Part shown: one piece after another, positions 26,156 through 42,121 of the stretch
How positions within the stretch are numbered: the stretch's first letter is position 1
Layout: each line of letters starts with the position of its first letter
Assembly (NCBI GenBank): GCA_028719205.1
Contig: JAQUKH010000014.1
Span: 1 to 57,949 of the forward strand
Length of the DNA: 57,949 nt
Origin: a bacterium
Lineage (GTDB): Bacteria; JACRDZ01; JAQUKH01
Reading direction: 5' to 3'
Made by a program: the position numbers and the translations under genes
The notes under the pieces: generated by a model
Databases searched by the model: none
Seen by the model: only the letters and a program-made list of their open reading frames with translations
What the model was told of the DNA's origin: nothing

Positions 26156-26202
26156 ATTTTATTCCTTCGATTGGAAAATGTCAAGATTAAAGACCTGACC
26201 CC
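26156..26202 (-). promoter_or_regulatory. RAYT upstream motif and promoter
   Basis: GGGGTCAGGTCTT followed by TTGACA-17 nt-TAAAAT, 6 nt before the ATG. Confidence 0.65.
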
Positions 26203-26341: not shown

Positions 26342-26461
26342 GGGCTATATTATACTATTTTTTGATTTATTTAAGGCGGATTTTTATTTTAGGAGATTGG
26401 TTAGGGGACAGACGGTTTAAACGGCTTTAGTAAGTTACTCTAGGAAACAACGGCCTATAAG

Positions 26462-28387: not shown

Positions 28388-28732
28388 TTATACATCCTCC
28401 ATAAAATATTTTCATTATTATAACACTAATTATAACGTCTATTAATCAAAATCTTTTAATAATTATACCACACTGATGGAATGAAATATCTTCTGCCCGA
28501 AAATCCCTGTTATTTAAAGAGATTTTTCTTGTAGGTGCATTTTAGCGGCTCAAGCTGTTTAAACGGTTCAAGCGGTTCAAACGGAATTTATTTAAAACAG
28601 TATATTTATTCCAACAGACACGCTGATATGGTTTTTAACCGCATCTGACACACTTTCACCTTTGAGGATACTTGCGATCGTTTTTTCTGTTCCTCAAACT
28701 TCCGACTTCTGATCTTATGACTTTTCCTAAAC

Positions 28733-29005
28733 TCTATGCCCTATGCTCTATGCGCCATGCCTCTTCACTGGTGACTGGTGACTTTACAACTTGTGACTTT
28801 TTTTGTTGTCTATATTTTTTCTGATGAGTTTTTTAACTTCGTTCCCAACAAGCTTTGGGATTTGTTTTTTGATTTCATCGGTTATTTTTTCCATTTATTT
28901 TTTCTCTTCTGTTCTTCCTAGCTTTTATCTTTACTTGTGACTTGTGATCTTGCAACTTGTAACTTTATTCCTGCTGGTGACTTGTGACCTGGTGCTCTGG
29001 CGACT
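28733..29005. repeat. Mixed heptamer arrays (CTATGCT and TTGTGAC types)
   Basis: CTCTATGCCCTATGCTCTATGCGCCATGC; CTTGTGACTTGTGATCTTGCAACTTGTAAC. Confidence 0.7.
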
Positions 29006-29057
29006 TATTAATAGATTATATCAAAGATTTGGATTGGTATTAGAATATTTTTTATTC

Positions 29058-29082
29058 GTAGGGGCGATCCGGCGGGTCGCCC
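29058..29082 (+). repeat. GTAG REP at left edge of AT-rich island
   Basis: GTAGGGGCGATCCGGCGGGTCGCCC. Confidence 0.8.
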
Positions 29083-29166
29083 TTTTAATGTATTTTTTGA
29101 ATAATTTTGAAGCAGATTATAAAAAGTCAACTCTTTTAATCTCTTAGCTACGTGATACTTGATCTA

Positions 29167-29760
29167 TTATGTCTTTGGCAATTTATTTTTATTATTTTGA
29201 GACTCACTTAGATCATTATTGGTAAAAGTAGTGGTTTGGAAGTTCCGTATAACAAAATATATATAAAAAGGAAAAAGACTGGCATAAAAAAATCCCAATA
29301 CAATTGCACCCAAATTATCATATTTTTGAACTCTAAAAAAAGCTAATGTAGCACCCCCTGCATAATACAATGCAGATGCAATAATAACTGAACAGAGAAA
29401 ATACTTTTCAGCACTGCGATTATTTTCTCCGTGTTTTTCAAGAAATTCTTCCCATCCAATTATATGTTTTGATTTTAGTTTCGGTTCAATATGTATACGA
29501 ATATAACGTCCTGCTCTCATAATACTATTTTGTTCAAACGAAAGCATTAATACAACAACTGCTGTAATTATTGGACTTACAATTATTACAAAATCTAAAT
29601 TAAGTTTTTCTCCAGCAGCAACCAAAAGTGGAATTCCTGATATGGAGATTGTTTGAGTTCGAACAACTCTTTCTTTAAGCGCCAATATTTCTGTTCTTAG
29701 AGTATTAAACTGATTAATAAGAAATTCTCTATCTTTATCGTTTGCAATTTCGTGATTCAT
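29167..29760 (-). CDS. Hypothetical 4-TM membrane protein
   Basis: Helical N-terminus QFNTLRTEI, two TM pairs separated by RAGRYIRIHIEP..GWE; GAGG RBS. Confidence 0.75.
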   Translation of the reverse strand: MNHEIANDKDREFLINQFNTLRTEILALKERVVRTQTISISGIPLLVAAGEKLNLDFVIIVSPIITAVVVLMLSFEQNSIMRAGRYIRIHIEPKLKSKHIIGWEEFLEKHGENNRSAEKYFLCSVIIASALYYAGGATLAFFRVQKYDNLGAIVLGFFYASLFPFYIYFVIRNFQTTTFTNNDLSESQNNKNKLPKT

Positions 29761-29773
29761 ACAACCTCTATTT

Positions 29774-30778
29774 TTAAAAACTCTTAATAAACTGCATCTT
29801 TTTTAGTCCATATGATGCTGCGCCAATTAAAGCTGATTCATGGTTAAGTACTATATACACTGGGATTTTTGATATTAGTTCTTTCATTTTCCCCTTTTGT
29901 TTAAAAGAATTCATAAATTGCCCATTCTTCAAAATTGATAGAATCCGGGGTGGAATCCCACCGCACACATAAAGACCAGCCGTAGATAATGTTTTCAAAG
30001 TTAAATTACCTGCTTCTGCCCCTAGAATAGAAATAAATATGTCCAACGCGGCTGTGCATATATCACACTTTTTATTTAGAGCAGCATCAATAATAATCGG
30101 AGTTATGTCAATATTGCTATTTTCATTTATTTGTTTAGTTAACCAATCGGGTTCTTTATACTTATCAGAATTTCTTAAAAAATAATAAATATTTGATATC
30201 CCTTTTCCGGAACAAACAGTTTCATAACTAACATGGTTTAATTGAGTTAATAGATAATTTAATAATTCTACTTCTATAGAATTGGTCGGAGCAAAATCAG
30301 TATGACCTCCCTGAGAAGGATAAATAAAATAACGATTTTTTCCCCATCCTAGAAAGGATTCACCTAATCCTGTACCAGGAGCAATAATGGAAATATTTCC
30401 ATTATGATTTTTTTCACCTAGGTTTAAAGTATATATTTCAGATTCTTTAAGATGTGGCAAAGCATAAGCTGTTGCTTCTAAATCATTTAATATTTTAACA
30501 TTTGAAATATTCAGTGATTTTTTAATATTATTTTCATCTATTGTCCAATTTAAGTTTGTTATTTTAGTTTTTCCTAACATTATAGGCCCTGCAACACCAA
30601 AACAGGCCATATTTATTTTGTAGTTTGTTTCGCTAAGAAAATCTTTTATTACACTTTCAAAATTGACATAATTTGAATTTTGATATAATTTTTTATTTAA
30701 GGTGTCTATAACTCCAGCTTTGAGCCTAAAAATCCCTAGTATTGTTTTTGTTGCACCAACATCGCCTGCAATTATCAT
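29774..30778 (-). CDS. glk: Glucokinase
   Basis: AGDVGATKT, FGVAGP, TNLNW, LNDLEA, PGTGLG, GGHTDF, GGIPPRI, F..KG. Confidence 0.93.
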   Translation of the reverse strand: MIIAGDVGATKTILGIFRLKAGVIDTLNKKLYQNSNYVNFESVIKDFLSETNYKINMACFGVAGPIMLGKTKITNLNWTIDENNIKKSLNISNVKILNDLEATAYALPHLKESEIYTLNLGEKNHNGNISIIAPGTGLGESFLGWGKNRYFIYPSQGGHTDFAPTNSIEVELLNYLLTQLNHVSYETVCSGKGISNIYYFLRNSDKYKEPDWLTKQINENSNIDITPIIIDAALNKKCDICTAALDIFISILGAEAGNLTLKTLSTAGLYVCGGIPPRILSILKNGQFMNSFKQKGKMKELISKIPVYIVLNHESALIGAASYGLKKMQFIKSF

Positions 30779-30995
30779 TATTATTTTCCCTTTTTGATAT
30801 TTATTTTATAGTTGAAAATAAATTTATTTAATTTAGCTATTATTTCATTAATTAATCTTATCTAACAATAAATAAGATGTCAAGGAAAAATATAAAAACC
30901 AAAAGCTATTTATACAACTTTAATTTTCAAAAATATTCTTCCTTTTATATTAAAGTGTCTCGGAAATAGAGACCAATATAAAAGCTCAATATTTA

Positions 30996-31151
30996 TTAAT
31001 TCCCACCCAAAAATGACTTCCTTACTTCATCATTATTTAAAAGATTTTGACCGGTGTCTTCTAAAAATATTTTTCCAATTTGAAAAACGTATCCTCTGTG
31101 AGCATATTCTAAGGCTGTGTAAGCGTTTTGTTCGACGAGTAAAATAGTGGT
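30996..31151 (-). pseudogene. 3' fragment of LivF-type branched-chain amino acid ABC ATPase
   Basis: Manual translation TTILLVEQNAYTALEYAHRGYVFQIGKIFLEDTGQNLLNNDEVRKSFLGGN*; no start, in-frame stop just upstream. Confidence 0.85.
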
Positions 31152-31299
31152 TCTGACCTACCCCCATCTATTATGCCACTAGCAGCTTAGTAATTCCACT
31201 TTCCAGGTTTTCTAAGACCGTCATTGATGTGAATAATCTTCTAAATTCGGGGACGATTGAAAGGCCTTTTTTTATTATATTTTATTGCAGGTATGGCAA

Positions 31300-32784
31300 T
31301 CAATTTATTATTGCTATAAGAAAATCGGCAAAATTTGTATGTATTTGATCTAATTTAATTTTCATTCCCTTTTGATTGATTATATTTTTTATTTCTTCTT
31401 CTTCGAATAATTTTTTAAATTCCTCACCTAATAAAAAATTTCTTCCAGTATCTTTTAAAAAATTTATATAATATTTATTTAATAATTTAGAAACCCGTCC
31501 TGTATGTTTTGGATCTTCACAATCAAGAATAATTATTTTATTTTTAGTTACTCTTATTAAATGTACAATTGTTTTACATATTTCGTTATAATCTCTCATA
31601 TGGTGAAGCGAATTTTTACAAATACTAATATCAAAATAATTATCAGTATAAGGTAAGTCTGGAGCAGCATGATTCGTCAAAAATATATTTTTTATTTTTT
31701 TTAGTATTTTATATTCAGTTAATATTTTTAGGGATACTAGGGACACGTCATTCCCAATTATTATACTATTTTTAGGTAATTTTTCATTTATATTAAAAAG
31801 AGATCTATCTTCCCCACAAGATACATCTAAATATTTTATAGGCTTATTATCTATTGTTGATTGCTTAATTTCATTATAAATAATATTTTTTATTTTTGAT
31901 TTTCTAAAAACAAAATTAAATATAGGTTTCATTATATAATTGTGGATTGCAATTCTATATTTTATAGATTGACTTGCTTCTGTTTCAATAGTATTTGGGT
32001 CAATATATTTATTTTTATGTATTTCTTTACCTTTAAGAAATGTTAATCGTTCGATTCCATGGCAAAATAAGTTATCATTTATTGAATTAATATCCACCAA
32101 AATACCTTCTGTTTTTTCTGATCTTTTATTGAAAAAATCATTCGAAGAATGACTCAAATAACATGTAAATGCAATACCTTCATGTGAATGATATTTATTA
32201 TCTGACGTATAATAATGATTTTCAAAATGCATTATTGGACGAGCTTCTCCAATAGAAGCACCTTTCAGTTCCTTATTGGCTATTCTTTGGACAGCCTCTA
32301 TAATAGATTCCCTCATATCATATATTTTAACTCCACCAGATGGTAGTGAATATATAGCCTGTTGAAAAAGGCTATTATTTAATGGTAAATCATTAAATAT
32401 TTGTGGACTCAAATGATTTAATAGAGGCGAACATATATCAATAGTATAATTTCCATTAGAAAAATTGTATTTATTATTTTCTTTTTTATCAGTAAGTTTC
32501 AGCATCATTTTTTCATAATTTGAATTTTGAGATAAGGTATCTTTTTCTGTTATAACAAATTTTGAATGTAATTTTGGAGCAACATAAATTTCATAGCGGT
32601 GTGTATAAATAAATAATATTATAAAAAAACGCCTTTTTTGACAATAAATAAAAAAAGGGTTTGGGGTATCCCTAATAAATGAATGTTTTGTGGGAAGAGA
32701 ATACAATTCTTTATATAGCTTAAACTCTTCCGCAACTTCTTTATCAAAAAATCCAGTGATTTGTTTATTATTATTTTTGTCCAT
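31300..32784 (-). CDS. Fusion of degenerate Nudix-like domain and class I SAM methyltransferase
   Basis: LPSGGV....ESIIEAVQRIANKELKG; YLDVSCG, GNDVS, DLPYTDNYFD, SLHH. Confidence 0.75.
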   Translation of the reverse strand: MDKNNNKQITGFFDKEVAEEFKLYKELYSLPTKHSFIRDTPNPFFIYCQKRRFFIILFIYTHRYEIYVAPKLHSKFVITEKDTLSQNSNYEKMMLKLTDKKENNKYNFSNGNYTIDICSPLLNHLSPQIFNDLPLNNSLFQQAIYSLPSGGVKIYDMRESIIEAVQRIANKELKGASIGEARPIMHFENHYYTSDNKYHSHEGIAFTCYLSHSSNDFFNKRSEKTEGILVDINSINDNLFCHGIERLTFLKGKEIHKNKYIDPNTIETEASQSIKYRIAIHNYIMKPIFNFVFRKSKIKNIIYNEIKQSTIDNKPIKYLDVSCGEDRSLFNINEKLPKNSIIIGNDVSLVSLKILTEYKILKKIKNIFLTNHAAPDLPYTDNYFDISICKNSLHHMRDYNEICKTIVHLIRVTKNKIIILDCEDPKHTGRVSKLLNKYYINFLKDTGRNFLLGEEFKKLFEEEEIKNIINQKGMKIKLDQIHTNFADFLIAIIN

Positions 32785-32845
32785 AACAATTTATTAATTA
32801 CACCATTTTCCCTATTATTACCTTCTAATTTATATCATAATATTT

Positions 32846-33367
32846 TTATTGTACAATTATTTCTTCAGATATTGATAAATGATGAATAAGCTGATAATAT
32901 TTAAACGAAACTGGATAAATTTCCAATATTTCTATCCTAATATCTTTACCTGCAATATTAATATTTTTCAAATCACCCTTTTTCATGCCCATCAAATTGT
33001 GTGCAAGAGGACTATCATAAGTAATTAATCCATTTATAGGATCAGACTCTCCGAAAGCTCCAATAGTAAATTCTTCTTCTTCTCCATTAAAAAGAATTTT
33101 AGCTGTAGCACCTATTCTTATTGCTTCCTTTTGCTCGTGTATTTCAATGATATTTACCCCATCTAAGAGTGATTTTAGCTTTTTTAAAATTGTTGATTCC
33201 ATTTCTAGTCTACGTTTTGCATCTTCATAACTAAAATTATCATGCCAATCGCAACTTATACCTGCAGCATCTCCCATTTCCTTACCAATATTTTTAACTT
33301 TTTCCTCTTGCTTTTTAATTTTTTTATTTACTAATTCTAACCCTTTTAGTGTAAAATATTTTTTCAT
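32846..33367 (-). CDS. GreA/GreB family factor, atypical tip
   Basis: T..GL coiled coil, DWHDNFSYE, IGAT, ESDP..G.ITYDSPLA..LMG.K.GD. Confidence 0.88.
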   Translation of the reverse strand: MKKYFTLKGLELVNKKIKKQEEKVKNIGKEMGDAAGISCDWHDNFSYEDAKRRLEMESTILKKLKSLLDGVNIIEIHEQKEAIRIGATAKILFNGEEEEFTIGAFGESDPINGLITYDSPLAHNLMGMKKGDLKNINIAGKDIRIEILEIYPVSFKYYQLIHHLSISEEIIVQ

Positions 33368-33398
33368 ATAATTACCTTTATAACAGAAACAACAAATA

Positions 33399-33992
33399 TT
33401 ATGATGATATTAATTTGAAACAATTGTTACTTATTTTTTGAATAGGTATATTTCCATCAATAATATTATCACACATGTCCATAACTTTAATTAACTGACA
33501 CCCATTATCAGTATCTGAGTTTTCTTTCTCAATATAATTAAGAATATTGTAATTATTATTCGAATCTATTTCCCTTTGTCTTTTTTTTATCCTAATAAGA
33601 CGTGTTGCTAAAGAAACTTCTACTCCAATAAGAAAGAAATCATAGAATTTATTTCTAAATAAAATAACTTCTTCGGTAGTTCTTATCCCATCAATAATAA
33701 ATCTTTCTATATTTTCACGTTTAATCTTTTCGATCGCCATTTTGGCAAGGATATCATTCCCCTTTTCTTCCCTCATTAAATTTGCAATTGTAAAATAATC
33801 TATTCTGTCGGATATTTTTATACCTTTAACATATGCCTCGTTTTTTATAAAATCCGAAAGAGAAATTATTGAATAATTTAGTCTAGATATTATTTCGCAA
33901 ATTGTTGATTTCCCAGATGCTATCCCTCCAGCAATACCTATATGTTTTTTTGTAATAATATTTGTTTCTATTCTTTCCATAAGCCACATCAA
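33399..33992 (-). CDS. P-loop nucleotide kinase (dephospho-CoA/NMP kinase-like)
   Basis: GIAGGIASGKST, LSD, IIDGIR..EE, R..R...R lid. Confidence 0.85.
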   Translation of the reverse strand: MMWLMERIETNIITKKHIGIAGGIASGKSTICEIISRLNYSIISLSDFIKNEAYVKGIKISDRIDYFTIANLMREEKGNDILAKMAIEKIKRENIERFIIDGIRTTEEVILFRNKFYDFFLIGVEVSLATRLIRIKKRQREIDSNNNYNILNYIEKENSDTDNGCQLIKVMDMCDNIIDGNIPIQKISNNCFKLISS

Positions 33993-34096
33993 TGATTTAT
34001 TTATGATTTAATTGTATGTTTATTTTTATTATAATCTAAATATTATTATTTATATTTTATTTTTATCAAATGCATTGTACAATCAACGCTTTAATC

Positions 34097-34774
34097 TCAC
34101 CGGTTCAAGGGAGTAGAAGACCGTAGTGGATCTGTTGTGGCAATTGTGTTAGCGACTTTAGACCCCGTAGCCTTAGTCTTTGCGAATGAAGTCTTTACTA
34201 GTTCATCGAACTCACTGTCTTTGATTCTTACGAGTGTCATATGTGTCTGTGTAAGAATATCAGCCATATCTACGAAGTATCCATTCCCATACTCAACATT
34301 CCCATTAGCATTTTTGTAGAACTTGATATACCCATAGTTGCGTATACGTTTACCATCTTTAAGTATGGTCGCATCAGAAGTAAACGACATCTCTTCTTTC
34401 TCTTCGTCATAATGAATGTCCCGGCTAGTCCATTCGGCACCAATCGTACCATCTGCATTTATCCCATACCCTTTATAGACATAGTCTCTGTGTGAAAAGT
34501 ATATCTTACATATACTGATGGGTCTTTCTTGGTTGTTAGTCATACTAATTATCCATGTTCCTTCAACCTTATTAAGAGGAGACAACCGACGCGCCAAGGA
34601 CTTACTACCACCAATAAGTTCATAAATCACCAGAAGTAGTACTCCTACAGCGACTGCACCTGTTAGCGCAGCAGAAACCGGCCATTGAAGGATTTTAGTA
34701 AAGAAATGGTCATAGGCTATTGGTACTAGTAAGCCAATTATAGCACCATATGCAGCAGCAATAGTTTTCTTCAT
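34097..34774 (-). CDS. 2TM plus beta-strand-rich protein (Cap15/S-2TM-beta-like)
   Basis: Two N-terminal TM helices, then VEGTW and alternating beta strands ending G.GYFVD; AGGAG RBS. Confidence 0.65.
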   Translation of the reverse strand: MKKTIAAAYGAIIGLLVPIAYDHFFTKILQWPVSAALTGAVAVGVLLLVIYELIGGSKSLARRLSPLNKVEGTWIISMTNNQERPISICKIYFSHRDYVYKGYGINADGTIGAEWTSRDIHYDEEKEEMSFTSDATILKDGKRIRNYGYIKFYKNANGNVEYGNGYFVDMADILTQTHMTLVRIKDSEFDELVKTSFAKTKATGSKVANTIATTDPLRSSTPLNR

Positions 34775-35434
34775 TTTTCACACTCCTTTGAAACCGCCAA
34801 ACAACGAGTCATCTTAGTTCGGTGTTAATAAACGCAGTGTAAATACCATATAATATTAGAAAATAAGGTTTTTAAATATAAATTTAATACACTATTTTAA
34901 ACAATCACATTACTAATCGGTTTACTATAGCAAAAACTAATATACACAATATCTAGTCATTAATAATTTTAGATTATATCCACAAAATTTATCTCAATTT
35001 ATTGTAGTTAAGCATTTTGTAAATTTTTATTAGATTTAGACCTTCAACTTAACTTAAACATTTTATTTTAATTTATTTTATACCAGACTTTTTTAAAAAT
35101 TTATATATTCGTTTTATCTAAATACTAAAATTATGATTTTTTGCGAAAATATCTCGAGACTTGGCTGAAATGATAGACAAACCTGCTTACGGCAGGTAAG
35201 AATGAATAGATATGGCCACTTCTCGTCCGCCTTTGGCGGATTTACACAACGAAACAATTTTATAACTTATATCATAATTTTTATTTATGTTCAATAAAAT
35301 AATTTAACAATAGAGGCTTTAATTTGATTTGGATAGAAAGTCGAAAATAGTTTTTAAAATCAGAATCACATTTTGGTACACCAGTCTTGCATCTTTCCCA
35401 TGGGACTTGGTCTTGTTCATATCAAAAATAGCAA

Positions 35435-35827
35435 CTAATATCCATTATCGACCGTGTTTCTAAGATACATATAGGATTGAGGTGGAGAAGCGTTAAAGTC
35501 TTGGCGTATACATAGTGGTTTTACATATTTTTTATTATCTCCAATTTTAATAGCATGGGCAACATTTCTATCAGTGAAGTATTCAAAGAAAAAGTCCTCG
35601 GAAATACCTGAATATTTTTTAGTCTTTTTCCAAAGCATATCAGGTGTTAGGCTGATTATATCTTCAATTTCGAATTCTCCGATAACTTGCTGAACTGGCG
35701 ATGATGCGTAAACAACTACAGTCTTTATGTTTGGATTTTTGAAAATGATTTTTCTAAATTCAAATTTCTTAGTGCCTTCAAAAATCTTGGAAGCATATTC
35801 GGGTTTTATTGATAGTAATACTCTCAT
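35435..35827 (-). CDS. ASCH domain protein
   Basis: LLSIKPEYA.KIF.G.KKFEFRK, VYASSP, GEF, PPQSY.Y. Confidence 0.92.
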   Translation of the reverse strand: MRVLLSIKPEYASKIFEGTKKFEFRKIIFKNPNIKTVVVYASSPVQQVIGEFEIEDIISLTPDMLWKKTKKYSGISEDFFFEYFTDRNVAHAIKIGDNKKYVKPLCIRQDFNASPPQSYMYLRNTVDNGY

Positions 35828-37347
35828 TTTTTGTAGGCAAATTTAACTAGTGAATTGAAATGTTCTCTATTCATTTTTATAAATCCTCTTGGCATATTTG
35901 TTATATCGGGTATTATTCCTAAAATATTTAAATCATTTAGTGTCGGCTTTGGTGTTGGAAATGAATGTGCGTAAAGAAAATTGATAACAAATGGTTTGTA
36001 ATCAGGATATTTGTCCCAATATTTCGTTTTTAATTCATCTTCTGAAATAACGGTTCTCTTCCTACAAATCGCGAGTAATTCTTCAAAAGATGTCAAATTA
36101 TTTTTTACATTTTCCACTATACAAATAGTTGTAACGGTACTCGAATATATTTTTGGAGTAGTTTCCCCCTTCCTATATATTACCAATATATCACCAGATT
36201 TTAGATATCTATCTTTCGAATGAGAAATATATACTTTGCTAATAGCATTTCTATATGGTTTATTTTCAATAAAGTCCTTTGGAGATTCGATAGTAAGAAT
36301 TGAATCAGGAAATAATTCGGTATGGTATTGTGGTTCAATTTTTATAATGTAAATGTTTGTTTCTTTCGAAAGAAAAGGAAAAGTATATTTAGGATTTTCA
36401 ATATTTGCCGGTAGGTTTTTATCAAAATGCCTTACATAAACTTTTTCTTCCTTATTTTGTGTAATCTTTATACCATGATATTTAAAACCCCATTCTTCTA
36501 GTAAAGCAATCAGCCTTTGATGTTCTTCCCTTTCATCAAAAATAGTTACATAAATTTCATTTACTTTTTGCTTAAGGGCATTATCAAAAATAATTTTTAA
36601 AAATCTTTCCCCGATTTTATAGCCATTATTTACAACTTTAAACGTTCCAATTTTCAGTCTTCTTTTCTTTATAAAAGTTGGTGTGATATCTGAATAGTTT
36701 TCATCTTCATTTTCAACTTTGATAAATAAAAAGGCTGATAAAATTTCGTCTTTATAACAGACATATGAAATTTCATCAGATTTTTTTCTGAACCATTTAT
36801 CAAAATCATGATAATCTTCCCTAAAACTGTCGAAGAAAGTATCAGATAGATTTACTTCCCCAAAAAATTGTTTTCTAACAGCCAATATCTTGTAGTCAAC
36901 AAGATCAGGGTTTTCGGCCGTAACTTTTTCGAGAAAAGTATCTATACTAAACACCTTTTCAGAAATATTCAGAATTTTTGCTTTTGTATGTATTTTTTTG
37001 TCTTCAGAGATGAGAATATCTACTCTCTCGCTAAATACTTCATTTAAAATTCTTGAATCACATACATCATTATCAGTTATATCAAATTTGTCACTAACTT
37101 GCTTTATGATTCCATTAAATGGCGTTTCAGTTTTTAAAAGATAATAATTTTTGATTTTAATGTTTATAGTTTTTACTGTTTCCAAATCTTTGCTACGATT
37201 CAATTCTTCGACTGTGATAGGATGAATACATTTGGTGATTTTTAGTTTCGTGTTGTCGAGCCAATGGAACAAATACCCAATATCTGGATTAACTACCTTA
37301 CTGGCTTCTCTGTGAATGATTATGTTAGTATCAAGTAATACTCTCAT
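35824..37347 (-). CDS. PIN domain + GNAT acetyltransferase + PUA/ASCH-like multidomain protein
   Basis: LLDTNIII..E..D..ISED (PIN); LKIGTFKV..G.KIGERF, EIYVT, WGF (GNAT); YHTELFPDS, KVYI, GDILVIYR. Confidence 0.85.
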   Translation of the reverse strand: MRVLLDTNIIIHREASKVVNPDIGYLFHWLDNTKLKITKCIHPITVEELNRSKDLETVKTINIKIKNYYLLKTETPFNGIIKQVSDKFDITDNDVCDSRILNEVFSERVDILISEDKKIHTKAKILNISEKVFSIDTFLEKVTAENPDLVDYKILAVRKQFFGEVNLSDTFFDSFREDYHDFDKWFRKKSDEISYVCYKDEILSAFLFIKVENEDENYSDITPTFIKKRRLKIGTFKVVNNGYKIGERFLKIIFDNALKQKVNEIYVTIFDEREEHQRLIALLEEWGFKYHGIKITQNKEEKVYVRHFDKNLPANIENPKYTFPFLSKETNIYIIKIEPQYHTELFPDSILTIESPKDFIENKPYRNAISKVYISHSKDRYLKSGDILVIYRKGETTPKIYSSTVTTICIVENVKNNLTSFEELLAICRKRTVISEDELKTKYWDKYPDYKPFVINFLYAHSFPTPKPTLNDLNILGIIPDITNMPRGFIKMNREHFNSLVKFAYKK

Positions 37348-37901
37348 CTTGTAATATAATCTTTTAAGGCTTTAAAAATATCTGAAAAATCTGAATGATT
37401 TCCGATATTCAAAGTTATTCTCAATTTGTTAGATACTTCCTTGGCATAGTTAATTTCACTATTCTGCATTTTTTTTAACAATAAAATGTCATATGGCCGT
37501 TTATCTCTTTCTTCGAGTCTGTGTTTAATCTTAATTATATCATCTATTACTAAATTCAACGAGATAGGATTTATATTTCTAAACGTTTCAATTGGCACAT
37601 TTATAATATTACTTTCTTTATCAAACAGACAGTAATGACCATCAAGTAAATAGTAATGATTTTCCTTTACTTTGTTTATCAATCCTTGAATCAAAATATA
37701 TTGGGCATGAGGGATATCCATTACTTTTTTGTTTTTGGAGTCACTACTAATTTCTTTCCATTTTAGCACTTCGCTTGCTGATAAATAATCAATCTTTAAG
37801 TCATTGCATATTTGTCTGCAAATAGTGCTTTTTCCTACTCCGTGAATTCCTCCTAGAAAAGCAATATTTTTTAACATATCTGTCTTTTTTCTAGAAAACA
37901 T
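37344..37901 (-). CDS. P-loop kinase (archaeal adenylate kinase-like)
   Basis: GGIHGVGKST, SAS, LLDGH, I..RL..RD. Confidence 0.85.
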   Translation of the reverse strand: MFSRKKTDMLKNIAFLGGIHGVGKSTICRQICNDLKIDYLSASEVLKWKEISSDSKNKKVMDIPHAQYILIQGLINKVKENHYYLLDGHYCLFDKESNIINVPIETFRNINPISLNLVIDDIIKIKHRLEERDKRPYDILLLKKMQNSEINYAKEVSNKLRITLNIGNHSDFSDIFKALKDYITR

Positions 37902-37955
37902 ATAATCGCTCTAATTGTTGATACTAATATGTTTTCTTAATATCCCTAAATATAT

Positions 37956-38972
37956 TTAGAAATTTTTGTAATATTCTTTAATAGCTTTAGTAACTCCATT
38001 TATATCGTGATCGAGTGGATTAAAAGTCTTTTCTGGTATCCACCTTTTAAGTTCATCAAAATTGAATATAGTTTTCCAATTCCCCCCGATAAGCGAACTT
38101 CTTAATAAGTTTATATAACTAATAACTTTTTCTGAAGCATCTTTTATTGATTCATCACCATTATTTATTATGAAATGAGAACTTTTGAATGTTTCGCCCA
38201 TTGATGAGTTTACAAATCCACTCCAAGCAGCAGCAATACATTGTGGTGCCTCAATTTGCTTTGAAATATTTTTTAGTTCAAGATAGTATCTAGGGAGTGT
38301 ATATTGTTTTAAAAATTGTTCTGGCACAAGCCGAATAAGATCTTTATTCCATTCAGAAGGAATTTCCGTCAATATACATTCTAAGTCCGCTTGCAAACAG
38401 TTTTGATATCTTTCAGCTTCAAGAATTTTGCTTTTATATGTTTTGTCATCAATTAGAATTGGCAATCCAGTAAATGTAAATGGGGTACTGCAGCAGAGAA
38501 GATGTCTATTGTTTCTTGAAAGAACACGAATGGATGCTACACCACTTTTGAATTTATATTCAGTATCAAAAAGCATTTTTGCTTCCACTTCACCATCTTC
38601 ATCTTCAACATATCTATCTAGTCGTTTGCTTTCTTTGTCAAGAGATTTTATTGCTTTTGAAAATATTTGTCCCGGAAGGACTGGAATCCATCTCGATAAT
38701 ATAGCATTATTAACACAAACAACATCCCCAGGATAAATCTTTTTAATATTGTCTGCTATCTTCCAGCCTTTCCAATAATTATCGCTTAGATAAAAATCTT
38801 TACCAAGTATACCTTTCCAAATATTGGCACTATCAATAGGATTAATAAAGTCAAATTCATGGAAATAACCCTTTCGTTTTTTCTCAGCCTTTTCTATCTC
38901 CCAATTAAAATAGTTTCTAATTTTTGAAACGATGTCAATGACTGTTGGTATATTCCAAATAAAATCTAACAT
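37956..38972 (-). CDS. Hypothetical protein
   Basis: 338-aa open frame, co-oriented, 54 nt upstream of the kinase; no motif recognised. Confidence 0.75.
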   Translation of the reverse strand: MLDFIWNIPTVIDIVSKIRNYFNWEIEKAEKKRKGYFHEFDFINPIDSANIWKGILGKDFYLSDNYWKGWKIADNIKKIYPGDVVCVNNAILSRWIPVLPGQIFSKAIKSLDKESKRLDRYVEDEDGEVEAKMLFDTEYKFKSGVASIRVLSRNNRHLLCCSTPFTFTGLPILIDDKTYKSKILEAERYQNCLQADLECILTEIPSEWNKDLIRLVPEQFLKQYTLPRYYLELKNISKQIEAPQCIAAAWSGFVNSSMGETFKSSHFIINNGDESIKDASEKVISYINLLRSSLIGGNWKTIFNFDELKRWIPEKTFNPLDHDINGVTKAIKEYYKNF

Positions 38973-39102
38973 TTCTTTCTATCCGGAAAAGCCGGGAATA
39001 TTATTGAAAACATTTACTTGTCCCTCTAATTTTAAGCAATTATTTAATTTCTATTTTATCCCTTTTCTCCTCATAATTCCATTCATTTTTAAATAATTAA
39101 GA

Positions 39103-39192
39103 GGGCGTATGCCACCCGCCTGCCGGACGGGCAGGTACGCCCCTACGAATTAAATACGGACAAAAAAGGGCGAGTTTAGAACTCGCCCCTAC
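39103..39192 (-). repeat. Two REPs at right edge of island, the first with a 21-nt insert
   Basis: GGGCGTATGCCA[CCCGCCTGCCGGACGGGCAGG]TACGCCCCTAC and GGGCGAGTTTAGAACTCGCCCCTAC. Confidence 0.85.
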
Positions 39193-39292
39193 AAAAACAA
39201 TAATTATCCAATTCCTTATAAAATTAAACTACCGCCCCCATCCTTATAATTCAAAACGCTCGCCAGCGTCAGCGGATTCGGGCCTAAAGGCT

Positions 39293-39434
39293 GATTACAC
39301 AGATTTCAATGCTCGATTACACAGATGCCTTACGGCTGATTACACAGATCCACCACGGCGGACAAGTTTAAATGCTCGATTACACAGATGCCTTACGGCT
39401 GATTACACAGATTTCAATACACGATTACACAGAT
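39293..39434. repeat. Array of six GATTACACAGAT 12-mers with short spacers
   Basis: Exact copies at 39293, 39315, 39338, 39378, 39401, 39423. Confidence 0.9.
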
Positions 39435-39474
39435 TTTCAGGAACATTGTCCATTTTGTCTAATATATACCGGCA

Positions 39475-39780
39475 TTATGCTACTTTTAAATTAAGCCCTA
39501 ATGAATTAAGTATATGCATAACTGTTGAAAATTTGGGATCGCCGTCTTTGGATAACGCTCTGTATAAATGCTCTCGGTTTAATCCCGACGTTTTGGAAAG
39601 TTTTGTAAATCCGCCTTTTATTTTGGCAACAACCGCAAGTGAAGCAAGAAAAGCTTTTTCATTGCCGTCTTTTTGGTATTCCTCCAAAGCAACTTCAAGA
39701 TATTGTTTGATCTCTTTGGGATGCCTGGTAAAATATTCTTCTTCAATTTCGTTTAATGTTCTAAATTTTCTTTTGTTCAC
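39475..39780 (-). CDS. Addiction module antidote (HigA-like HTH)
   Basis: YL..ALEE, GG...L...SGLNREHLYRALS.DGDP.F.T. Confidence 0.9.
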   Translation of the reverse strand: MNKRKFRTLNEIEEEYFTRHPKEIKQYLEVALEEYQKDGNEKAFLASLAVVAKIKGGFTKLSKTSGLNREHLYRALSKDGDPKFSTVMHILNSLGLNLKVA

Positions 39781-40084
39781 GGTATTCCTCCCAATATTCC
39801 AATGCCTTTTTTATATCCTTATCCTGTGTACTTTTGTCGCCGCCAACTAATAATAATACCAGATCATTTCCATCCTCACCGCAATATACTCTGTAACCTT
39901 TTCCGAAATCAAAACGCAATTCTAAAATTCCGCTAAATCTTTTATGATCGCCGTAATTACCCTGTTCAACTCTTTTTAGCCTTACAAGAATTCTCTTTTG
40001 GGATACTTTATCTTTTAAAGAATAAAGCCAATCTGTAAAAGGTTCTTCATTGTCTTGTGTTTTATATGAAATTATTGTTTTCAT
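39761..40084 (-). CDS. RelE/HigB-like toxin (addiction module killer)
   Basis: PF.DWL..LKD, RL.R...GN.GD.K, ELR...G.GYRVY, LL.GGDKSTQ.KDI. Confidence 0.92.
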   Translation of the reverse strand: MKTIISYKTQDNEEPFTDWLYSLKDKVSQKRILVRLKRVEQGNYGDHKRFSGILELRFDFGKGYRVYCGEDGNDLVLLLVGGDKSTQDKDIKKALEYWEEYREQKKI

Positions 40085-40088
40085 CAGT

Positions 40089-40117
40089 ATTGTAGCTTAT
40101 AACCTACATTTTGTCAA
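40089..40117 (-). promoter_or_regulatory. TA promoter with palindromic operator, probably leaderless
   Basis: TTGACA-17 nt-TACAAT, 4 nt before the ATG; TGTAG..TTATAA..CTACA palindrome overlaps it. Confidence 0.75.
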
Positions 40118-40263
40118 GAGGAATAATCTTATCATTAAAATAATTCAACTAATCATTTGAGTTATTATTTTACCACTAAAACTCAATAATATTTTAATTT
40201 TTTTAATAATGTATGGGCAGGCAGGTTTCCCGTTCAAATCCTGAAATTGGAATTATATAATTC

Positions 40264-40545
40264 TTAATGATTTAATGATTCTTGAGAAAGATACTCTCTC
40301 AACATAGACTTAAGAGTGGTTTTACCTTTTGTGCTTTTAAGATATTTTTCTCTTCGCAAAGCATCGTATTTATTTCTGTAAGATTCATAAAATATTAATT
40401 TTAAAGGTAATCTTGGAGCCGTGGCAGGGACTTGTCCCTTTTGATGACGCAGAAATCTGGATTTTAAATCATCGGTAAAACCGATATAAAGATTTTTATC
40501 TTTTAAGCTCTGCAAAATATATACGTAATAAAATACATCACTCAT
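40264..40545 (-). CDS. Small GIY-YIG nuclease
   Basis: YYVYILQS....LYIG.T.DL..R...H..G, E.Y....A..RE.YLKS. Confidence 0.92.
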   Translation of the reverse strand: MSDVFYYVYILQSLKDKNLYIGFTDDLKSRFLRHQKGQVPATAPRLPLKLIFYESYRNKYDALRREKYLKSTKGKTTLKSMLREYLSQESLNH

Positions 40546-40722
40546 CGTTTAATTAAATTATTTTTTGATCCATCTATAGAAGAAGGATAGTTCAAATACA
40601 TTTTCGAATTATATACCTTTTAGATGGCTATGTCCAGAACCGTATGGTTCAAGAAGGAGCCCTGTACCATCTATAAATATCATATACAGATAAGATGGCG
40701 GAGCCCTGTACCGTACGGTACA

Positions 40723-40748
40723 GGGCGGAGAGATAGGGAGTTGAACTC
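40723..40748 (-). repeat. Imperfect copy of tRNA-Ser 3' end
   Basis: GAGTTCAACTCCCTATCTCTCCGCC versus GGGTTCAAATCCCTCTCTCTCCGCC in the tRNA. Confidence 0.7.
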
Positions 40749-40879
40749 GCTACGCTCTCCATAGGGGCTCAGCCCCTCTGGCGTTACGTCCCGATAAATC
40801 GGGACTCCACTGTCACCCCTTGAAGGAAACTCCCGTTTCCTCCAAACCTCTTTCCCGTTAAAATCCCTCTCTCCCAAAT

Positions 40880-40916
40880 AAAAAAGCCTCAAATGGTTTT
40901 TAACCACTTGAGGCTT
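40880..40916 (-). terminator. Rho-independent terminator after tRNA-Ser
   Basis: AAGCCTCAA...TTGAGGCTT stem followed by T-run on minus strand. Confidence 0.75.
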
Positions 40917-40920
40917 ATAC

Positions 40921-41010
40921 TGGCGGAGAGAGAGGGATTTGAACCCCCGGTGGACTTTCATCCACGCTAGTTTTCAAGACTAGAGCCATCAACCGCTCGG
41001 CCATCTCTCC
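40921..41010 (-). tRNA. tRNA-Ser(UGA)
   Basis: GGAGAGA stem, CTAGT-CTTGAAA-ACTAG anticodon arm, long variable arm, GCCA end, 90 nt. Confidence 0.95.
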
Positions 41011-41019
41011 GGAGAAATA

Positions 41020-41140
41020 AGTCACAAAGTCACAAGTTACAATGTCACAAGTAACATAAATAAGGGCACAAGTCACAACGTCACAATGTCACAAGCAACA
41101 ATCAAAAAAAGTCACAAGTTTCAACGTCACAAGTGACATA
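41020..41140. repeat. GTCACAA heptamer array
   Basis: About ten (G/T)CACAA units. Confidence 0.85.
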
Positions 41141-41150
41141 CAAAAACAGG

Positions 41151-41561
41151 TTACAGGCTTTTATGGAAATTCCATAAAAGTTTTCCGACTTCCTGACGTA
41201 AGGCTTGCAACATTCTATTTGTTTTTTCGTCCAAATATCCCAACTTTAAAGAAAAATCTAATAGGTACTCAGTTTCCGCAAGAGAACCTAATGCTATATT
41301 TACAAACTGCTTTAACTCTTTCCTGCCTTGTCGGCCGGATCCTTCAACAATATTAGTTGGAACTGATAATGCGGCTCTTCGCAATTGTGAAGTAATCCCG
41401 TAAATTTCTTCCTTTGGAAATCTTTTTGTTTCTATATATACCTTAAATGCTAATTCGTCCGCCTTGTTCCAAACCAGCAAATTTTTATAACCATATTTTA
41501 CTACTTCTTTTTCTTGTTGTTGACCTTGTAACCTTGCTGTTTGTAACATTTCGATTTTCAC
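41151..41561 (-). CDS. Four helix bundle protein (23S rRNA IVS protein family); start uncertain
   Basis: YKNL.VW.KA, FPKEE.YG.TSQLRRAA.SVP.NI.EG, IA.GSL.E. Confidence 0.93.
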   Translation of the reverse strand: MKIEMLQTARLQGQQQEKEVVKYGYKNLLVWNKADELAFKVYIETKRFPKEEIYGITSQLRRAALSVPTNIVEGSGRQGRKELKQFVNIALGSLAETEYLLDFSLKLGYLDEKTNRMLQALRQEVGKLLWNFHKSL

Positions 41562-41665
41562 AACTTATTTCGTTCTTCACTCTTTACCGGTGACGTTGTG
41601 ACCTTGCAACTTTCAACTTTTCTTGCTGGTGACTTTGTGACCTTAAAACTTGTGACTTTGTGCCC
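41520..41665. repeat. TTGTGAC heptamer array, inverted relative to 41020-41140
   Basis: TTGACCTTGTAACCTTG, GGTGACGTTGTGACCTTGCAAC, TTGTGACC..TTGTGACTTTGTG. Confidence 0.75.
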
Positions 41666-42017
41666 TTGCCAAATAATTAAAAGCAAAAAAATAATTCTGC
41701 CATAAGCGGTCAGAAGAACCGTATTCATTATTACAGGCAAAGTAATCGGCTAAGACTTCATTAAGCCGGGTTAATTCCCTGAGCCTGTTTTTATTTCTAC
41801 CATCGGAAATAGTTAAACTTAAGAGTTCTAAAGCGCGTTCAAAAGCCAGCCTGCTATATTCAGGATTATTTTTGTTTTTCCAGTTAATAGCCCTGAATAC
41901 TTCACTCCCGATATTTGCCATTTGTGATGGGAATGAAAGTTTAAACCATTTACCGTTTGCCAATTCCTTGTGCTGATAATTTCTATTAATCGTGATTTTG
42001 TCTTTTATAATTCTCAT
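41643..42017 (-). CDS. Small helical hypothetical protein
   Basis: QHKELA.G.W, QMANIGSEV.RA, ERALELL, E..R..E...D.F; ATG 42017 preferred. Confidence 0.75.
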   Translation of the reverse strand: MRIIKDKITINRNYQHKELANGKWFKLSFPSQMANIGSEVFRAINWKNKNNPEYSRLAFERALELLSLTISDGRNKNRLRELTRLNEVLADYFACNNEYGSSDRLWQNYFFAFNYLARAQSHKF

Positions 42018-42121
42018 TTTTTTCTCTTTGCCTGTGACTCCCGCCGCGGCGGGCAAGTGTGACTTTGCAACTTCAACTTTTCTTGCTGGTGACGTGGTGA
42101 CTTTGTGACTTGTGACCTATC

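What the first reader, a model, noticed from the sequence alone, without database searches (positions are those of the whole stretch)
35435..37901. Translationally coupled kinase / PIN-GNAT-PUA / ASCH operon
Seen: three genes joined by 4-nt ATGA/ATGAG-type overlaps (37344-37347, 35824-35827). They combine an RNase fold, an acetyltransferase, two predicted modified-base reader domains and an adenylate-kinase-like enzyme. Established: ASCH/PUA folds bind nucleic acids, and some ASCH proteins deacetylate ac4C. Inference: a write/read/cut system based on nucleic acid or tRNA acetylation, probably antiphage or toxin-antitoxin-like. Similar triplets may be widespread; I cannot assign a name.
Basis: partly seen in the sequence, partly recalled or inferred. 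Interest (0 to 1): 0.75.

Follow-up and report, generated by a model that had tools for sequence, protein, structure and literature searches.

The report
Known PIN-GNAT-PUA/ASCH toxin-antitoxin-like cassette with kinase
The three overlapping genes are real and form a widespread, already catalogued but biochemically unsolved cassette (PADLOC candidate PDC-M11, labelled GevT toxin/GevA antitoxin in one phage record), here in its longer form with a nuclease domain and an extra kinase-like gene.

Summary

- **507-aa protein:** folds as PIN (1-140), GNAT (153-312) and a ZmASCH-like PUA-type domain (328-506).
- **130-aa protein:** an ASCH protein.
- **185-aa protein:** has an archaeal adenylate-kinase fold.

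The system has names. The 507-aa/ASCH pair is PADLOC candidate PDC-M11 (5e-204 and 3e-52). The triplet is the (PIN)-GNAT-EVE + ASCH + AAA_17 operon of Bell 2020 and Matelska 2017. A PIN-less relative in an E. coli lambdoid phage record is labelled GevT toxin/GevA antitoxin (40% and 56% identity). This scan met the cassette before on other DNA.

In related loci ASCH follows the big gene in 78 of 80. The kinase precedes it in 31 of 74 judgeable loci, with at least 11 gains or losses on the tree.

My reading is a toxin-antitoxin-like conflict module acting on RNA. The ASCH partner keeps the Lys/Glu dyad of tRNA ac4C deacetylases in 79 of 79 sequences. I found no experimental paper. This is a new member of a known kind, of moderate interest.

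The parts
37344..37901 (-). 185-aa P-loop kinase-like protein (AAA_17) with an archaeal adenylate-kinase fold; an accessory gene of the cassette
   Evidence: Pfam AAA_17 6e-13. Model pLDDT 93.1. Best folds are archaeal adenylate kinases: 6ln3 Z 19.1 and 7owe Z 16.9, with the next unrelated match at Z 14.9; Foldseek agrees. A homolog lies directly upstream of the big gene in 31 of 80 loci.
35824..37347 (-). 507-aa PIN-GNAT-PUA(ASCH-like) protein, PADLOC PDC-M11A; the predicted toxin or effector
   Evidence: PDC-M11A 5.4e-204 over residues 1-505. More than 5480 homologs. Three-domain model.
36928..37347 (-). PIN (VapC-like) domain, residues 1-140
   Evidence: VIA-align to 4chg_A Z 13.3, 3zvk_B Z 13.2 and 5sv2 Z 13.0. 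D6, E48, D94, D97 and D116 are invariant in 80 of 80 sequences.
36412..36891 (-). GNAT-fold domain, residues 153-312, with an atypical beta4-alpha3 loop (N-G-Y-K-I-G)
   Evidence: Naa60 and Naa50 Z 14.2-14.5. Profile alignment to Naa50. Seven of the nine columns invariant across 45 diverse homologs lie in this domain.
35830..36366 (-). C-terminal ZmASCH-like PUA-type domain, residues 328-506; lacks the ASCH octapeptide and carries an invariant YHTELFPDS motif
   Evidence: 5y6b_D Z 14.1, rmsd 2.2, 139 of 139 residues. Collinear but non-significant hhalign match to the ASCH partner, with an insertion where the octapeptide would be. Motif counts.
35435..35827 (-). 130-aa ASCH protein, PADLOC PDC-M11B; the predicted antitoxin
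   Evidence: PDC-M11B 3e-52. Pfam ASCH 6e-5. phmmer to ZmASCH 5GUS 1.5e-10. 56% identical to the protein labelled GevA antitoxin. G18, K20, E23 and R25 are invariant in 79 of 79 sequences.
37344..37347 (-). ATGA stop/start overlap, kinase to big gene
35824..35827 (-). ATGA stop/start overlap, big gene to ASCH
35181..35197 (-). Weak terminator-like hairpin about 240 nt downstream of ASCH; a possible operon end
   Evidence: Consensus scan only: 5 sites found against 2.2 +/- 1.7 expected in shuffles.

Best explanation
This is a three-gene member of the (PIN)-GNAT-PUA/EVE + ASCH cassette family. That family is PADLOC candidate PDC-M11, and its PIN-less phage form is labelled GevT toxin / GevA antitoxin. 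It sits in a horizontally acquired low-GC island. I read it as a toxin-antitoxin-like conflict module that acts on RNA, most likely tRNA. Shown here: the gene order and coupling, the folds, the conserved residues and the family membership. Inferred: (1) the 507-aa protein is the effector, in which the C-terminal ASCH-like domain has lost the catalytic octapeptide and docks on an RNA or a modified nucleotide, the GNAT-fold domain transfers an acyl group to it, and the PIN domain with its intact acidic residues cuts RNA; (2) the small ASCH protein is the antidote, probably an enzyme that removes the acyl mark, since it keeps the Lys/Glu dyad needed for tRNA N4-acetylcytidine deacetylation in other ASCH proteins, or else it competes for the same RNA; (3) the kinase-like protein is a dispensable accessory whose acceptor is probably not an ordinary nucleoside monophosphate. 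I put membership at about 0.95, a toxin-antitoxin or defence role at about 0.6, and the acetyl write/erase step at about 0.3.
For: Family: PDC-M11A 5e-204 and PDC-M11B 3e-52. The proteins labelled GevT and GevA hit the same models at 2e-133 and 7e-52, and are 40% (5e-60) and 56% (3e-50) identical to the window's proteins. In that phage the pair lies between cI and kil. Linkage: ASCH lies downstream in 78 of 80 loci, and the two misses are cut by contig ends. Active sites: the PIN acidic residues are invariant in 80 of 80, and the ASCH octapeptide GxKxxExR is invariant in 79 of 79. The ASCH partner is homologous to ZmASCH (1.5e-10). ZmASCH binds and cuts single-stranded RNA (PMC5615036, abstract and passages) and removes ac4C from tRNA in vitro (preprint 10.64898/2026.02.27.708502, sections 21-22). 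The GNAT domain holds 7 of the 9 columns invariant across 45 diverse homologs. Mobility: GC is 0.25-0.31 against 0.36-0.44 in the flanks; 0 of 40 other genomes searched have it, including 2 of the same genus; the protein tree cuts across taxonomy; homologs occur on plasmids (33 records) and in phages (16 records). Published predictions agree.
Against: I found no experimental paper on this family. PDC systems are described as untested candidates (preprint 10.1101/2024.01.29.577857). The toxin and antitoxin labels rest on one GenBank annotation. The GNAT motif A (Q/R-x-x-G-x-G/A) is replaced by N-G-Y-K-I-G, and Matelska 2017 argue from this that the domain may be inactive. ZmASCH did not hydrolyse free ac4C and did not lower ac4C when expressed in E. 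coli. Defence context is weak among close relatives: of 142 flanking ORFs the commonest families are housekeeping (beta-lactamase-fold 11, SufBD 8), and only a few hit defence models (DndC 3, type II methyltransferase 3, HNH 2, AbiEi 1).
Confidence: 0.6

Rival explanations
1. A PIN toxin with a catalytically dead GNAT-like scaffold. The GNAT and PUA-like domains only bind RNA or regulate the PIN nuclease. The ASCH protein neutralises by binding the toxin or its RNA, or by repressing transcription, with no acetylation chemistry.
For: Motif A is atypical (N-G-Y-K-I-G instead of R/Q-x-x-G-x-G/A), and Matelska 2017 state the domain probably lacks acetyltransferase activity. The PIN acidic residues are invariant. 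In alpha-proteobacteria the ASCH partner is fused to an HTH domain, which fits a regulator.
Against: PIN is missing in many family members: forms of about 350 aa, and the phage GevT of 357 aa. The GNAT and PUA-like domains are always kept, so PIN cannot be the core toxin. The GNAT domain is the most conserved part. The ASCH catalytic dyad is invariant, which is unexpected for a pure binder.
Confidence: 0.2
2. A housekeeping or regulatory RNA-modification pair: a writer (GNAT) and an eraser (ASCH) of an acetyl mark on tRNA or rRNA that tunes translation, not a conflict system.
For: ASCH proteins act as tRNA ac4C erasers in vitro. Flanking genes in Flavobacterium-type loci are housekeeping (SufBD, beta-lactamase-fold). 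NCBIfam finds the same ASCH type fused to ribosomal protein L22 (2e-14, below that model's cut-off).
Against: The distribution is patchy and mobile: 0 of 40 other genomes searched carry it, it sits in a low-GC island, it is carried by phages and plasmids, and its tree disagrees with taxonomy. A PIN nuclease fused to a housekeeping writer would be unusual. The pair sits at the cI-proximal locus of a lambdoid phage, between cI and kil.
Confidence: 0.08
3. A DNA-base acetylation system of restriction-modification type, in which PUA-type domains read modified DNA, GNAT acetylates a DNA base and ASCH removes or reads the mark. This is the proposal of Iyer et al. 2013 as cited by Bell 2020 and Matelska 2017.
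For: Bell 2020 report links to type I restriction-modification systems and an ASCH-HsdS fusion. PDC candidates were found embedded in BREX, DISARM and type I RM systems. ZmASCH also binds single-stranded DNA.
Against: No restriction-modification genes adjoin the cassette in this window. None are among the 25 PADLOC families listed of 61 matched in the flanks of 142 related ORFs. PIN domains of the VapC type and ZmASCH act on RNA. I could not read Iyer 2013, which is not held.
Confidence: 0.07

Closest known systems
PADLOC phage-defence candidate PDC-M11 (A + B)
   Same: Both core proteins hit its models end to end (5.4e-204 and 3e-52), with the same order, strand and coupling.
   Different: PDC-M11 has two genes. 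Here a kinase-like gene is translationally coupled upstream; it gives only chance-level PADLOC hits (VakA 0.0016).
(PIN)-GNAT-EVE + ASCH (+ AAA_17 ATPase) operons of Bell et al. 2020 (PMC7641849), PIN_15/PIN_17 of Matelska et al. 2017 (PMC5499597), and Iyer et al. 2013 (not read)
   Same: The same three-domain protein, a second PUA-type protein in the operon, and a frequent AAA_17 gene noted for Bacteroidetes. The window reproduces all three parts.
   Different: Those papers call the C-terminal domain EVE or PUA-like. In my fold search its best solved match is ZmASCH, so the two reader domains look like divergent copies of one fold. The reported link to type I RM is not seen in this window or in the flanks of the 80 closest loci.
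GevT toxin / GevA antitoxin of Escherichia phage PhiR47_2 (GenBank PV340567.1; annotation only)
   Same: GevA is 56% identical to the window's ASCH protein (3e-50). GevT is 40% identical to residues 162-464 of the big protein (5e-60). Both hit the PDC-M11 models.
   Different: GevT has no PIN domain (357 aa) and no kinase gene, and lies between cI and kil in a lambdoid phage. The same pair at 99% identity or more is in 275 of 5426 complete E. coli genomes, annotated only as hypothetical protein and ASCH domain protein. I found no paper behind the names.
ZmASCH (PDB 5GUQ/5GUS) and ASCH-family N4-acetylcytidine deacetylases (YqfB, TthASCH, EOLA1, TRIP4)
   Same: Sequence homology (1.5e-10). The octapeptide G-x-K-x-x-E-x-R is kept, and so are the equivalents of ZmASCH Y47, Y90, Q127 and S128 (Y40, Y83, Q117, S118). 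The Lys/Glu dyad is essential for tRNA deacetylation in TthASCH, EOLA1 and TRIP4.
   Different: ZmASCH K53 is Q46 here. No activity has been measured for this subfamily. ZmASCH was inactive on free ac4C and gave no significant ac4C decrease when overexpressed in E. coli, but was active on tRNA in vitro.
[quoted passage not shown]
   Same: A GNAT fold used as a toxin acting on aminoacyl-tRNA is the analogy drawn by Bell 2020.
   Different: Those toxins are single-domain proteins neutralised by DNA-binding antitoxins. This one is fused to PIN and PUA-type domains, has an atypical motif A and is paired with an ASCH protein.
Archaeal-type adenylate kinases (for example PDB 6LN3, 7OWE, 1KHT)
   Same: Best structural matches over nearly the whole kinase (Z 19.1, 174 residues aligned; Foldseek 1.8e-9). 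P-loop GGxHGxGK and an hhhDGH strand.
   Different: In the profile alignment to human AK1, the Arg that ends HLSTGDLLR aligns with an invariant Trp (W48). The Arg two residues after DGY has no counterpart, because the kinase has C91 there. That these Arg residues bind the NMP phosphate is recalled from memory. I therefore do not file it as an adenylate kinase.

Membership tests
PADLOC PDC-M11 | Protein matching a PDC-M11A model | tested here: met
   PDLC04422 5.4e-204, residues 1-505 on profile positions 1-493 of 501
PADLOC PDC-M11 | Adjacent protein matching a PDC-M11B model | tested here: met
   PDLC04425 3e-52, residues 1-125; the genes overlap by 4 nt
PADLOC PDC-M11 | Protection against phage | not testable with these tools
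   Candidates are described as untested. The two papers that name PDC-M11 only list it.
(PIN)-GNAT-EVE + ASCH operon (Bell 2020) | N-terminal PIN, central GNAT and C-terminal PUA-superfamily domain in one protein | tested here: met
   VIA-align ranges 1-140, 153-312 and 328-506 with Z 13-14.5
(PIN)-GNAT-EVE + ASCH operon (Bell 2020) | C-terminal domain is specifically of the EVE type | tested here: inconclusive
   The best solved match is ZmASCH (an ASCH protein), and no EVE entry appears in the 50 rows shown. Only Foldseek's top chains were re-aligned.
(PIN)-GNAT-EVE + ASCH operon (Bell 2020) | Separate ASCH protein in the operon, often with an AAA_17 protein | tested here: met
   Pfam ASCH 6e-5 and AAA_17 6e-13. 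ASCH in 78 of 80 related loci and the kinase in 31 of 80.
GevTA (GenBank PV340567.1 annotation) | Homology of both proteins to GevT and GevA | tested here: met
   40% identity at 5e-60 and 56% identity at 3e-50
GevTA (GenBank PV340567.1 annotation) | Toxicity of the large protein and neutralisation by the small one | not testable with these tools
   Record annotation only; no paper found
GNAT acetyltransferases | GNAT fold | tested here: met
   Naa60 5icv_A Z 14.5, rmsd 2.9, 153 residues aligned
GNAT acetyltransferases | Motif A Q/R-x-x-G-x-G/A (CoA pyrophosphate loop) | tested here: not met
   The loop aligned to Naa50 R-G-I-G-I-G reads N-G-Y-K-I-G; only the last Gly of the three signature positions is kept. 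I therefore call it a GNAT-fold domain, not a proven acetyltransferase.
PIN / VapC nucleases | Conserved acidic active-site residues | tested here: met
   D6, E48, D94, D97 and D116 invariant in 80 of 80. Which four form the site is inferred from the fold, not measured.
VapBC toxin-antitoxin systems | Upstream VapB-type DNA-binding antitoxin | tested here: not met
   The upstream gene is the kinase and the downstream gene is ASCH, so this is not a VapBC pair.
ASCH N4-acetylcytidine amidohydrolases / tRNA deacetylases | Octapeptide G-x-K-x-x-[E/T]-x-R with the Lys and Glu/Thr dyad | tested here: met
   GTKKFEFR; G18, K20, E23 and R25 invariant in 79 of 79. The motif is defined in the preprint, sections 20-22.
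ASCH N4-acetylcytidine amidohydrolases / tRNA deacetylases | Deacetylase activity | not testable with these tools
   Needs an enzyme assay
Adenylate / NMP kinases | P-loop and NMP-kinase fold | tested here: met
   GGIHGVGKST; 6ln3 Z 19.1; profile hit to AK1 1.4e-8
Adenylate / NMP kinases | Arginines that hold the acceptor NMP phosphate (role recalled from memory) | tested here: not met
   The AK1 Arg of HLSTGDLLR aligns to invariant W48, and the position after DGH holds C91. It is not filed as an adenylate kinase.

The most novel reading that the evidence does not exclude
The cassette is an RNA-acylation counterpart of DarTG (the DarTG analogy is recalled from memory). The GNAT-fold domain, aimed by a catalytically disabled ASCH-like reader, puts an acyl mark on a tRNA base or on aminoacyl-tRNA. 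The free-standing ASCH protein is an enzymatic antitoxin that erases that mark. In the long form, a PIN nuclease and an adenylate-kinase-fold enzyme with a Trp in place of the NMP-binding Arg add cutting and a phosphorylation step on a non-NMP substrate, for example an RNA end or a nucleoside. That would make a three-enzyme write/erase/cut circuit.
Probability: 0.2. Interest if true: 0.75.

Novelty: new member of a known kind. Interest (0 to 1): 0.35.

Why it matters
The family is very large: more than 5480 proteins in one search and 1794 cluster representatives at 50% identity. It occurs in bacteria, archaea-infecting and enterobacterial phages and plasmids, and its PIN-less form is in 275 of 5426 complete E. 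coli genomes. In everything I could read, its chemistry is still unknown. The recent report that ASCH proteins remove N4-acetylcytidine from tRNA gives the small partner a concrete, testable activity. If that holds, this would be a toxin-antitoxin or defence system built on reversible RNA acylation. The window itself adds only another instance, in a sparsely sampled lineage and in the longer PIN-plus-kinase form.

Tried and rejected
- **Complex prediction:** the 507-aa protein with the ASCH partner gave no verdict (score 0.00, controls not run). I draw nothing from it.
- **RNA evidence:** no RNA holder was listed for the stretch. Three DNA runs of one study hold it, and one may be the source. 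I did not lay reads.
- **Promoter scan:** sigma-70-like sites are at chance level (32 found against 29.8 +/- 5.4).
- **Upstream 338-aa gene (37956-38972):** I considered it a possible fourth member. It has no Pfam, PADLOC or NCBIfam hit, no homolog in the 80 related loci and no usable Atlas hit, so I rejected it as a conserved part.
- **Downstream 225-aa gene:** it lies 660 nt away and gives only a chance-level AbiI hit (7.8e-4). Rejected.
- **Filing the kinase as adenylate kinase:** rejected (see the membership test).
- **hhalign of the ASCH partner against the C-terminal domain:** collinear but not significant (E 0.029, probability 1.7%). Their kinship rests on the fold only.
- **Iyer et al. 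2013:** not held under DOI, a guessed PMC id or the PubMed id. I know it only through citations.
- **Papers behind the GevT and GevA names:** none found. The library lacks most subscription journals, so a published characterisation may exist.
- **Supplementary tables:** those of Payne 2024 that define PDC-M11 were not available.
- **Island boundary in congeners:** in one same-genus genome the contig ends 1.9 kb beyond serS, and glucokinase was not found with this query in either of the two. No clean empty site could be shown.
Full report

Yes. The minus strand carries three ORFs: 37344-37901 (185 aa), 35824-37347 (507 aa) and 35435-35827 (130 aa). At 37344-37347 and at 35824-35827 the plus strand reads TCAT. 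On the coding strand that is ATGA, so each stop overlaps the next start.

The coupling is conserved in relatives, not accidental.
- Between the big gene and the ASCH gene, 69 of 77 comparable loci have gaps of -14 to +9 nt, and 33 of these are exactly -4.
- Between the kinase and the big gene, 29 of 30 extracted loci have gaps of -23 to +23 nt.

**2. What are the three proteins?**

- **Big protein.** Pfam has no hit for it. A model built on 45 homologs is confident (pLDDT 91.5, pTM 0.86).
  - Residues 1-140 match VapC-type PIN toxins (Z 13.0-13.3).
  - Residues 153-312 match GNAT acetyltransferases (Naa60, Z 14.5).
  - Residues 328-506 match the Zymomonas mobilis ASCH protein (5y6b_D, Z 14.1, rmsd 2.2, all 139 residues).
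- **Small protein.** Pfam calls it ASCH (6e-5). It is homologous to ZmASCH at sequence level (1.5e-10).
- **Kinase.** Pfam calls it AAA_17 (6e-13). Its model (pLDDT 93.1) is closest to archaeal-type adenylate kinases. 6ln3 scores Z 19.1 over 174 residues and 7owe scores Z 16.9, ahead of other P-loop kinases at Z 12-14. Foldseek gives the same answer.

**3. Does it have a name?**

Yes, several.
- **PADLOC.** The models identify the big protein as PDC-M11A (5.4e-204, end to end) and the small one as PDC-M11B (3e-52). PDC systems are 145 candidates derived from genes embedded in BREX, DISARM and type I RM systems, and their authors describe them as untested (preprint 10.1101/2024.01.29.577857, passages). 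The tables that define PDC-M11 are supplements that I could not open.
- **Bell et al. [quoted passage not shown] They state that almost all such operons also encode an ASCH protein and often an AAA_17 ATPase. They class these as predicted toxin-antitoxin systems with no module characterised (PMC7641849, passages).
- **Matelska et al. 2017.** They list the same systems under PIN_15 and PIN_17. They note extra ATPase genes in alpha-proteobacteria and Bacteroidetes, and argue that the GNAT domain lacks motif A (PMC5499597, passages).
- **Iyer et al. 2013.** Both papers credit this work, which I could not read.
- **A phage record.** A tblastn search of phage records hit Escherichia phage PhiR47_2 (PV340567.1). 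There a 357-aa gene and a 125-aa gene between cI and kil are annotated 'GevT toxin' and 'GevA antitoxin'.
  - GevA is 56% identical to the window's ASCH protein (3e-50), and GevT is 40% identical to residues 162-464 of the big protein (5e-60).
  - Both hit the PDC-M11 models (2e-133 and 7e-52).
  - I found no paper that uses these names, so their experimental basis is unknown to me.
  - The same pair at 99% identity or more is in 275 of 5426 complete E. coli genomes, annotated only as hypothetical protein and ASCH domain protein.

**4. How is the family built?**

The big protein has more than 5480 homologs below E 0.001 among 8000 scored candidates. The named ones are mostly Bacteroidota 'PIN domain-containing proteins'. 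An exhaustive search of 50%-identity representatives gave 1794 hits. These include forms of about 350 aa that begin near residue 150 (no PIN) and forms of about 620 aa with an N-terminal extension.

In 80 genomic loci:
- **ASCH gene.** It follows the big gene in 78. The two misses, L050 and L074, are cut by contig ends.
- **Kinase gene.** It lies directly upstream in 31 of the 74 loci with at least 600 nt of upstream sequence. On a FastTree phylogeny of the big protein, kinase presence needs 15 changes, and at least 11 on well-supported branches (shuffled mean 24.4). The kinase is therefore a recurrent but dispensable accessory.
- **Kinase family size.** It has only 333 hits.
- **Extra gene.** Six loci carry a further gene of about 310 aa, with no Pfam or PADLOC match for the copies scanned on their own (L004, L018), between the big gene and ASCH.

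**5. What do the conserved residues say?**

- **PIN.** D6, E48, D94, D97 and D116 are invariant in 80 of 80 sequences, so a working nuclease is plausible.
- **GNAT.** Seven of the nine columns invariant across 45 diverse homologs lie here (F172, Y179, W185, E212, Y266, F288, E301). The loop that aligns to the Naa50 R-G-I-G-I-G motif reads N-G-Y-K-I-G. The domain is under strong constraint, but its CoA-binding signature is atypical, so acetyl transfer is unproven.
- **C-terminal ASCH-like domain.** It aligns collinearly with the partner (hhalign E 0.029, not significant). It has an insertion and an invariant YHTELFPDS motif where the partner has its octapeptide.
- **ASCH partner.** It keeps G18-x-K20-x-x-E23-x-R25 in 79 of 79 sequences. 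It also keeps the equivalents of ZmASCH Y47, Y90, Q127 and S128.
  - A 2026 preprint reports that all 19 ASCH proteins tested, ZmASCH among them, remove ac4C from E. coli tRNA in vitro, and that the Lys/Glu pair is essential in three of them. ZmASCH was inactive on the free nucleoside and showed no significant effect when overexpressed in E. coli (10.64898/2026.02.27.708502, sections 21 and 22).
- **Kinase.** The profile hits human AK1 (1.4e-8). The Arg ending HLSTGDLLR aligns with an invariant Trp (W48), and the position after DGH is Cys. That those arginines hold the acceptor phosphate is my recollection. On that basis the acceptor is probably not an ordinary NMP.

**6. What is the context?**

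- **Composition.** The cassette lies in a stretch of GC 0.25-0.31, inside a window of mostly 0.33-0.45 (0.36-0.44 in the flanking blocks).
- **tRNA and repeats.** The stretch lies next to the 3' end of tRNA-Ser(tga) at 40921-41010. GTGAC-rich repeats flank it.
- **Other island genes.** The island also holds a HigB/HigA-like pair, a GIY-YIG gene, and a methyltransferase / GreA-B-like / dCTP-deaminase-type kinase-domain trio.
- **Genome.** It is a 2.59-Mb, 68-contig assembly from a sparsely sampled lineage. None of 40 other genomes searched, including two of the same genus, has the big gene.
- **Nearest relatives.** They are 63-71% identical, and the named ones are mostly from Bacteroidota. Acquisition by horizontal transfer is likely.
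- **Defence context in relatives.** It is weak. I scanned 142 flanking ORFs, after dropping 8 syntenic Flavobacterium rows.
  - The commonest Pfam families were beta-lactamase-fold (11), SufBD (8), phage integrase (4) and HNH (4 and 3).
  - The commonest PADLOC families were DndC (3), type II methyltransferase (3), HNH (2) and single hits to AbiEi, DrmD and others.
  - Only the top 25 families are listed, so I cannot give a total. In Flavobacterium the cassette sits as a small islet between sufD and a beta-lactamase-fold gene.

**7. How does it most likely work?**

*Shown:* family membership, architecture, coupling, conserved sites and mobility.

*Inferred:*
- The big protein is the effector.
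- Its disabled ASCH-like domain aims it at an RNA or a modified nucleotide.
- The GNAT-fold domain acylates the target, and the PIN domain cuts.
- The ASCH partner is the antidote.
- The kinase modulates.

Three points favour an enzymatic, mark-erasing antidote: the invariant dyad, the homology to ZmASCH, and the fact that PIN is optional while GNAT and PUA are always kept.

Against it stand the atypical motif A, the lack of any assay, and ZmASCH's weak behaviour in cells.

The complex prediction gave no verdict.

**8. Verdict**

This is a new member of a known, catalogued kind whose chemistry is, as far as I could read, still unsolved. Interest is moderate. The window adds an instance in an unusual lineage and shows the long PIN-plus-kinase form. 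The open mechanism, which may be reversible RNA acylation, is what makes the family worth bench work.

Noticed in passing
window 28600-42120: The low-GC stretch (0.25-0.31) abuts the 3' end of tRNA-Ser(tga) at 40921-41010. Arrays of GTGAC/GTCAC-rich repeats bracket it (28778-28990 and 41026-42119). An imperfect 18-nt direct repeat lies at 28623-28640 and 40888-40905. This may be a genomic island of about 12 kb with no integrase inside it.
   Followed up: partly
window 31300-33992 (minus strand): Three adjacent genes: a 494-aa protein with a C-terminal SAM methyltransferase domain, a 173-aa protein with a GreA/GreB C-terminal domain, and a 197-aa P-loop kinase. The kinase matches the kinase part of the PADLOC dCTPase model (1.2e-19) and the NCBIfam anti-phage dCTP deaminase model (1.4e-10, far below its cut-off), but there is no deaminase domain. 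This may be a separate defence-like module.
   Followed up: no
window 39475-40084 (minus strand): A HigB/HigA-like toxin-antitoxin pair (Gp49/DUF891 1.6e-5 and 'addiction module antidote' 2.4e-18). A GIY-YIG gene lies at 40264-40545 and a 23S rRNA intervening-sequence protein at 41151-41561.
   Followed up: no
window 37956-38972 (minus strand): A 338-aa ORF 54 nt upstream of the kinase on the same strand. It has no Pfam, PADLOC, NCBIfam or Atlas match and no homolog in the 80 related loci. It may be co-transcribed, but it is not a conserved part of the cassette.
   Followed up: partly
L004:4598-5545, L013:6515-7438, L018:6518-7444, L073:6493-7422, L074:6493-7209, L076:1312-2241: In six related loci a gene of about 310 aa is inserted between the big gene and ASCH. 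The copies are 53-56% identical to one another. The two copies scanned on their own (L004, L018) have no Pfam or PADLOC match. L012 instead has a 355-aa gene with no PADLOC match between the kinase and the big gene.
   Followed up: partly
window 35814-35827 and 37334-37347: The big gene and the ASCH gene start with the same 14 nt (AGTAATACTCTCAT on the plus strand), and both proteins begin MRVLL. This may be a shared translational-coupling signal or chance.
   Followed up: no
window 39282-39434: Short tandem-like repeats built on GATTACACAGAT and GCCTTACGGCTGA units, in the spacer between the 338-aa gene and the HigBA-like pair.
   Followed up: no
window 25307-28000: An IS200-like transposase (Y1_Tnp 2.8e-12) and a 512-aa PLD-like protein (PLDc_2 8e-24) lie just outside the low-GC stretch.
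   Followed up: no
L024 and L028: The big proteins of a Dysgonomonas and a Prevotella assembly are nearly identical (branch lengths 0.002 and 0). Rickettsiales and Ignavibacteriota sequences nest among the Bacteroidota ones. These are signs of recent horizontal transfer of the cassette.
   Followed up: no
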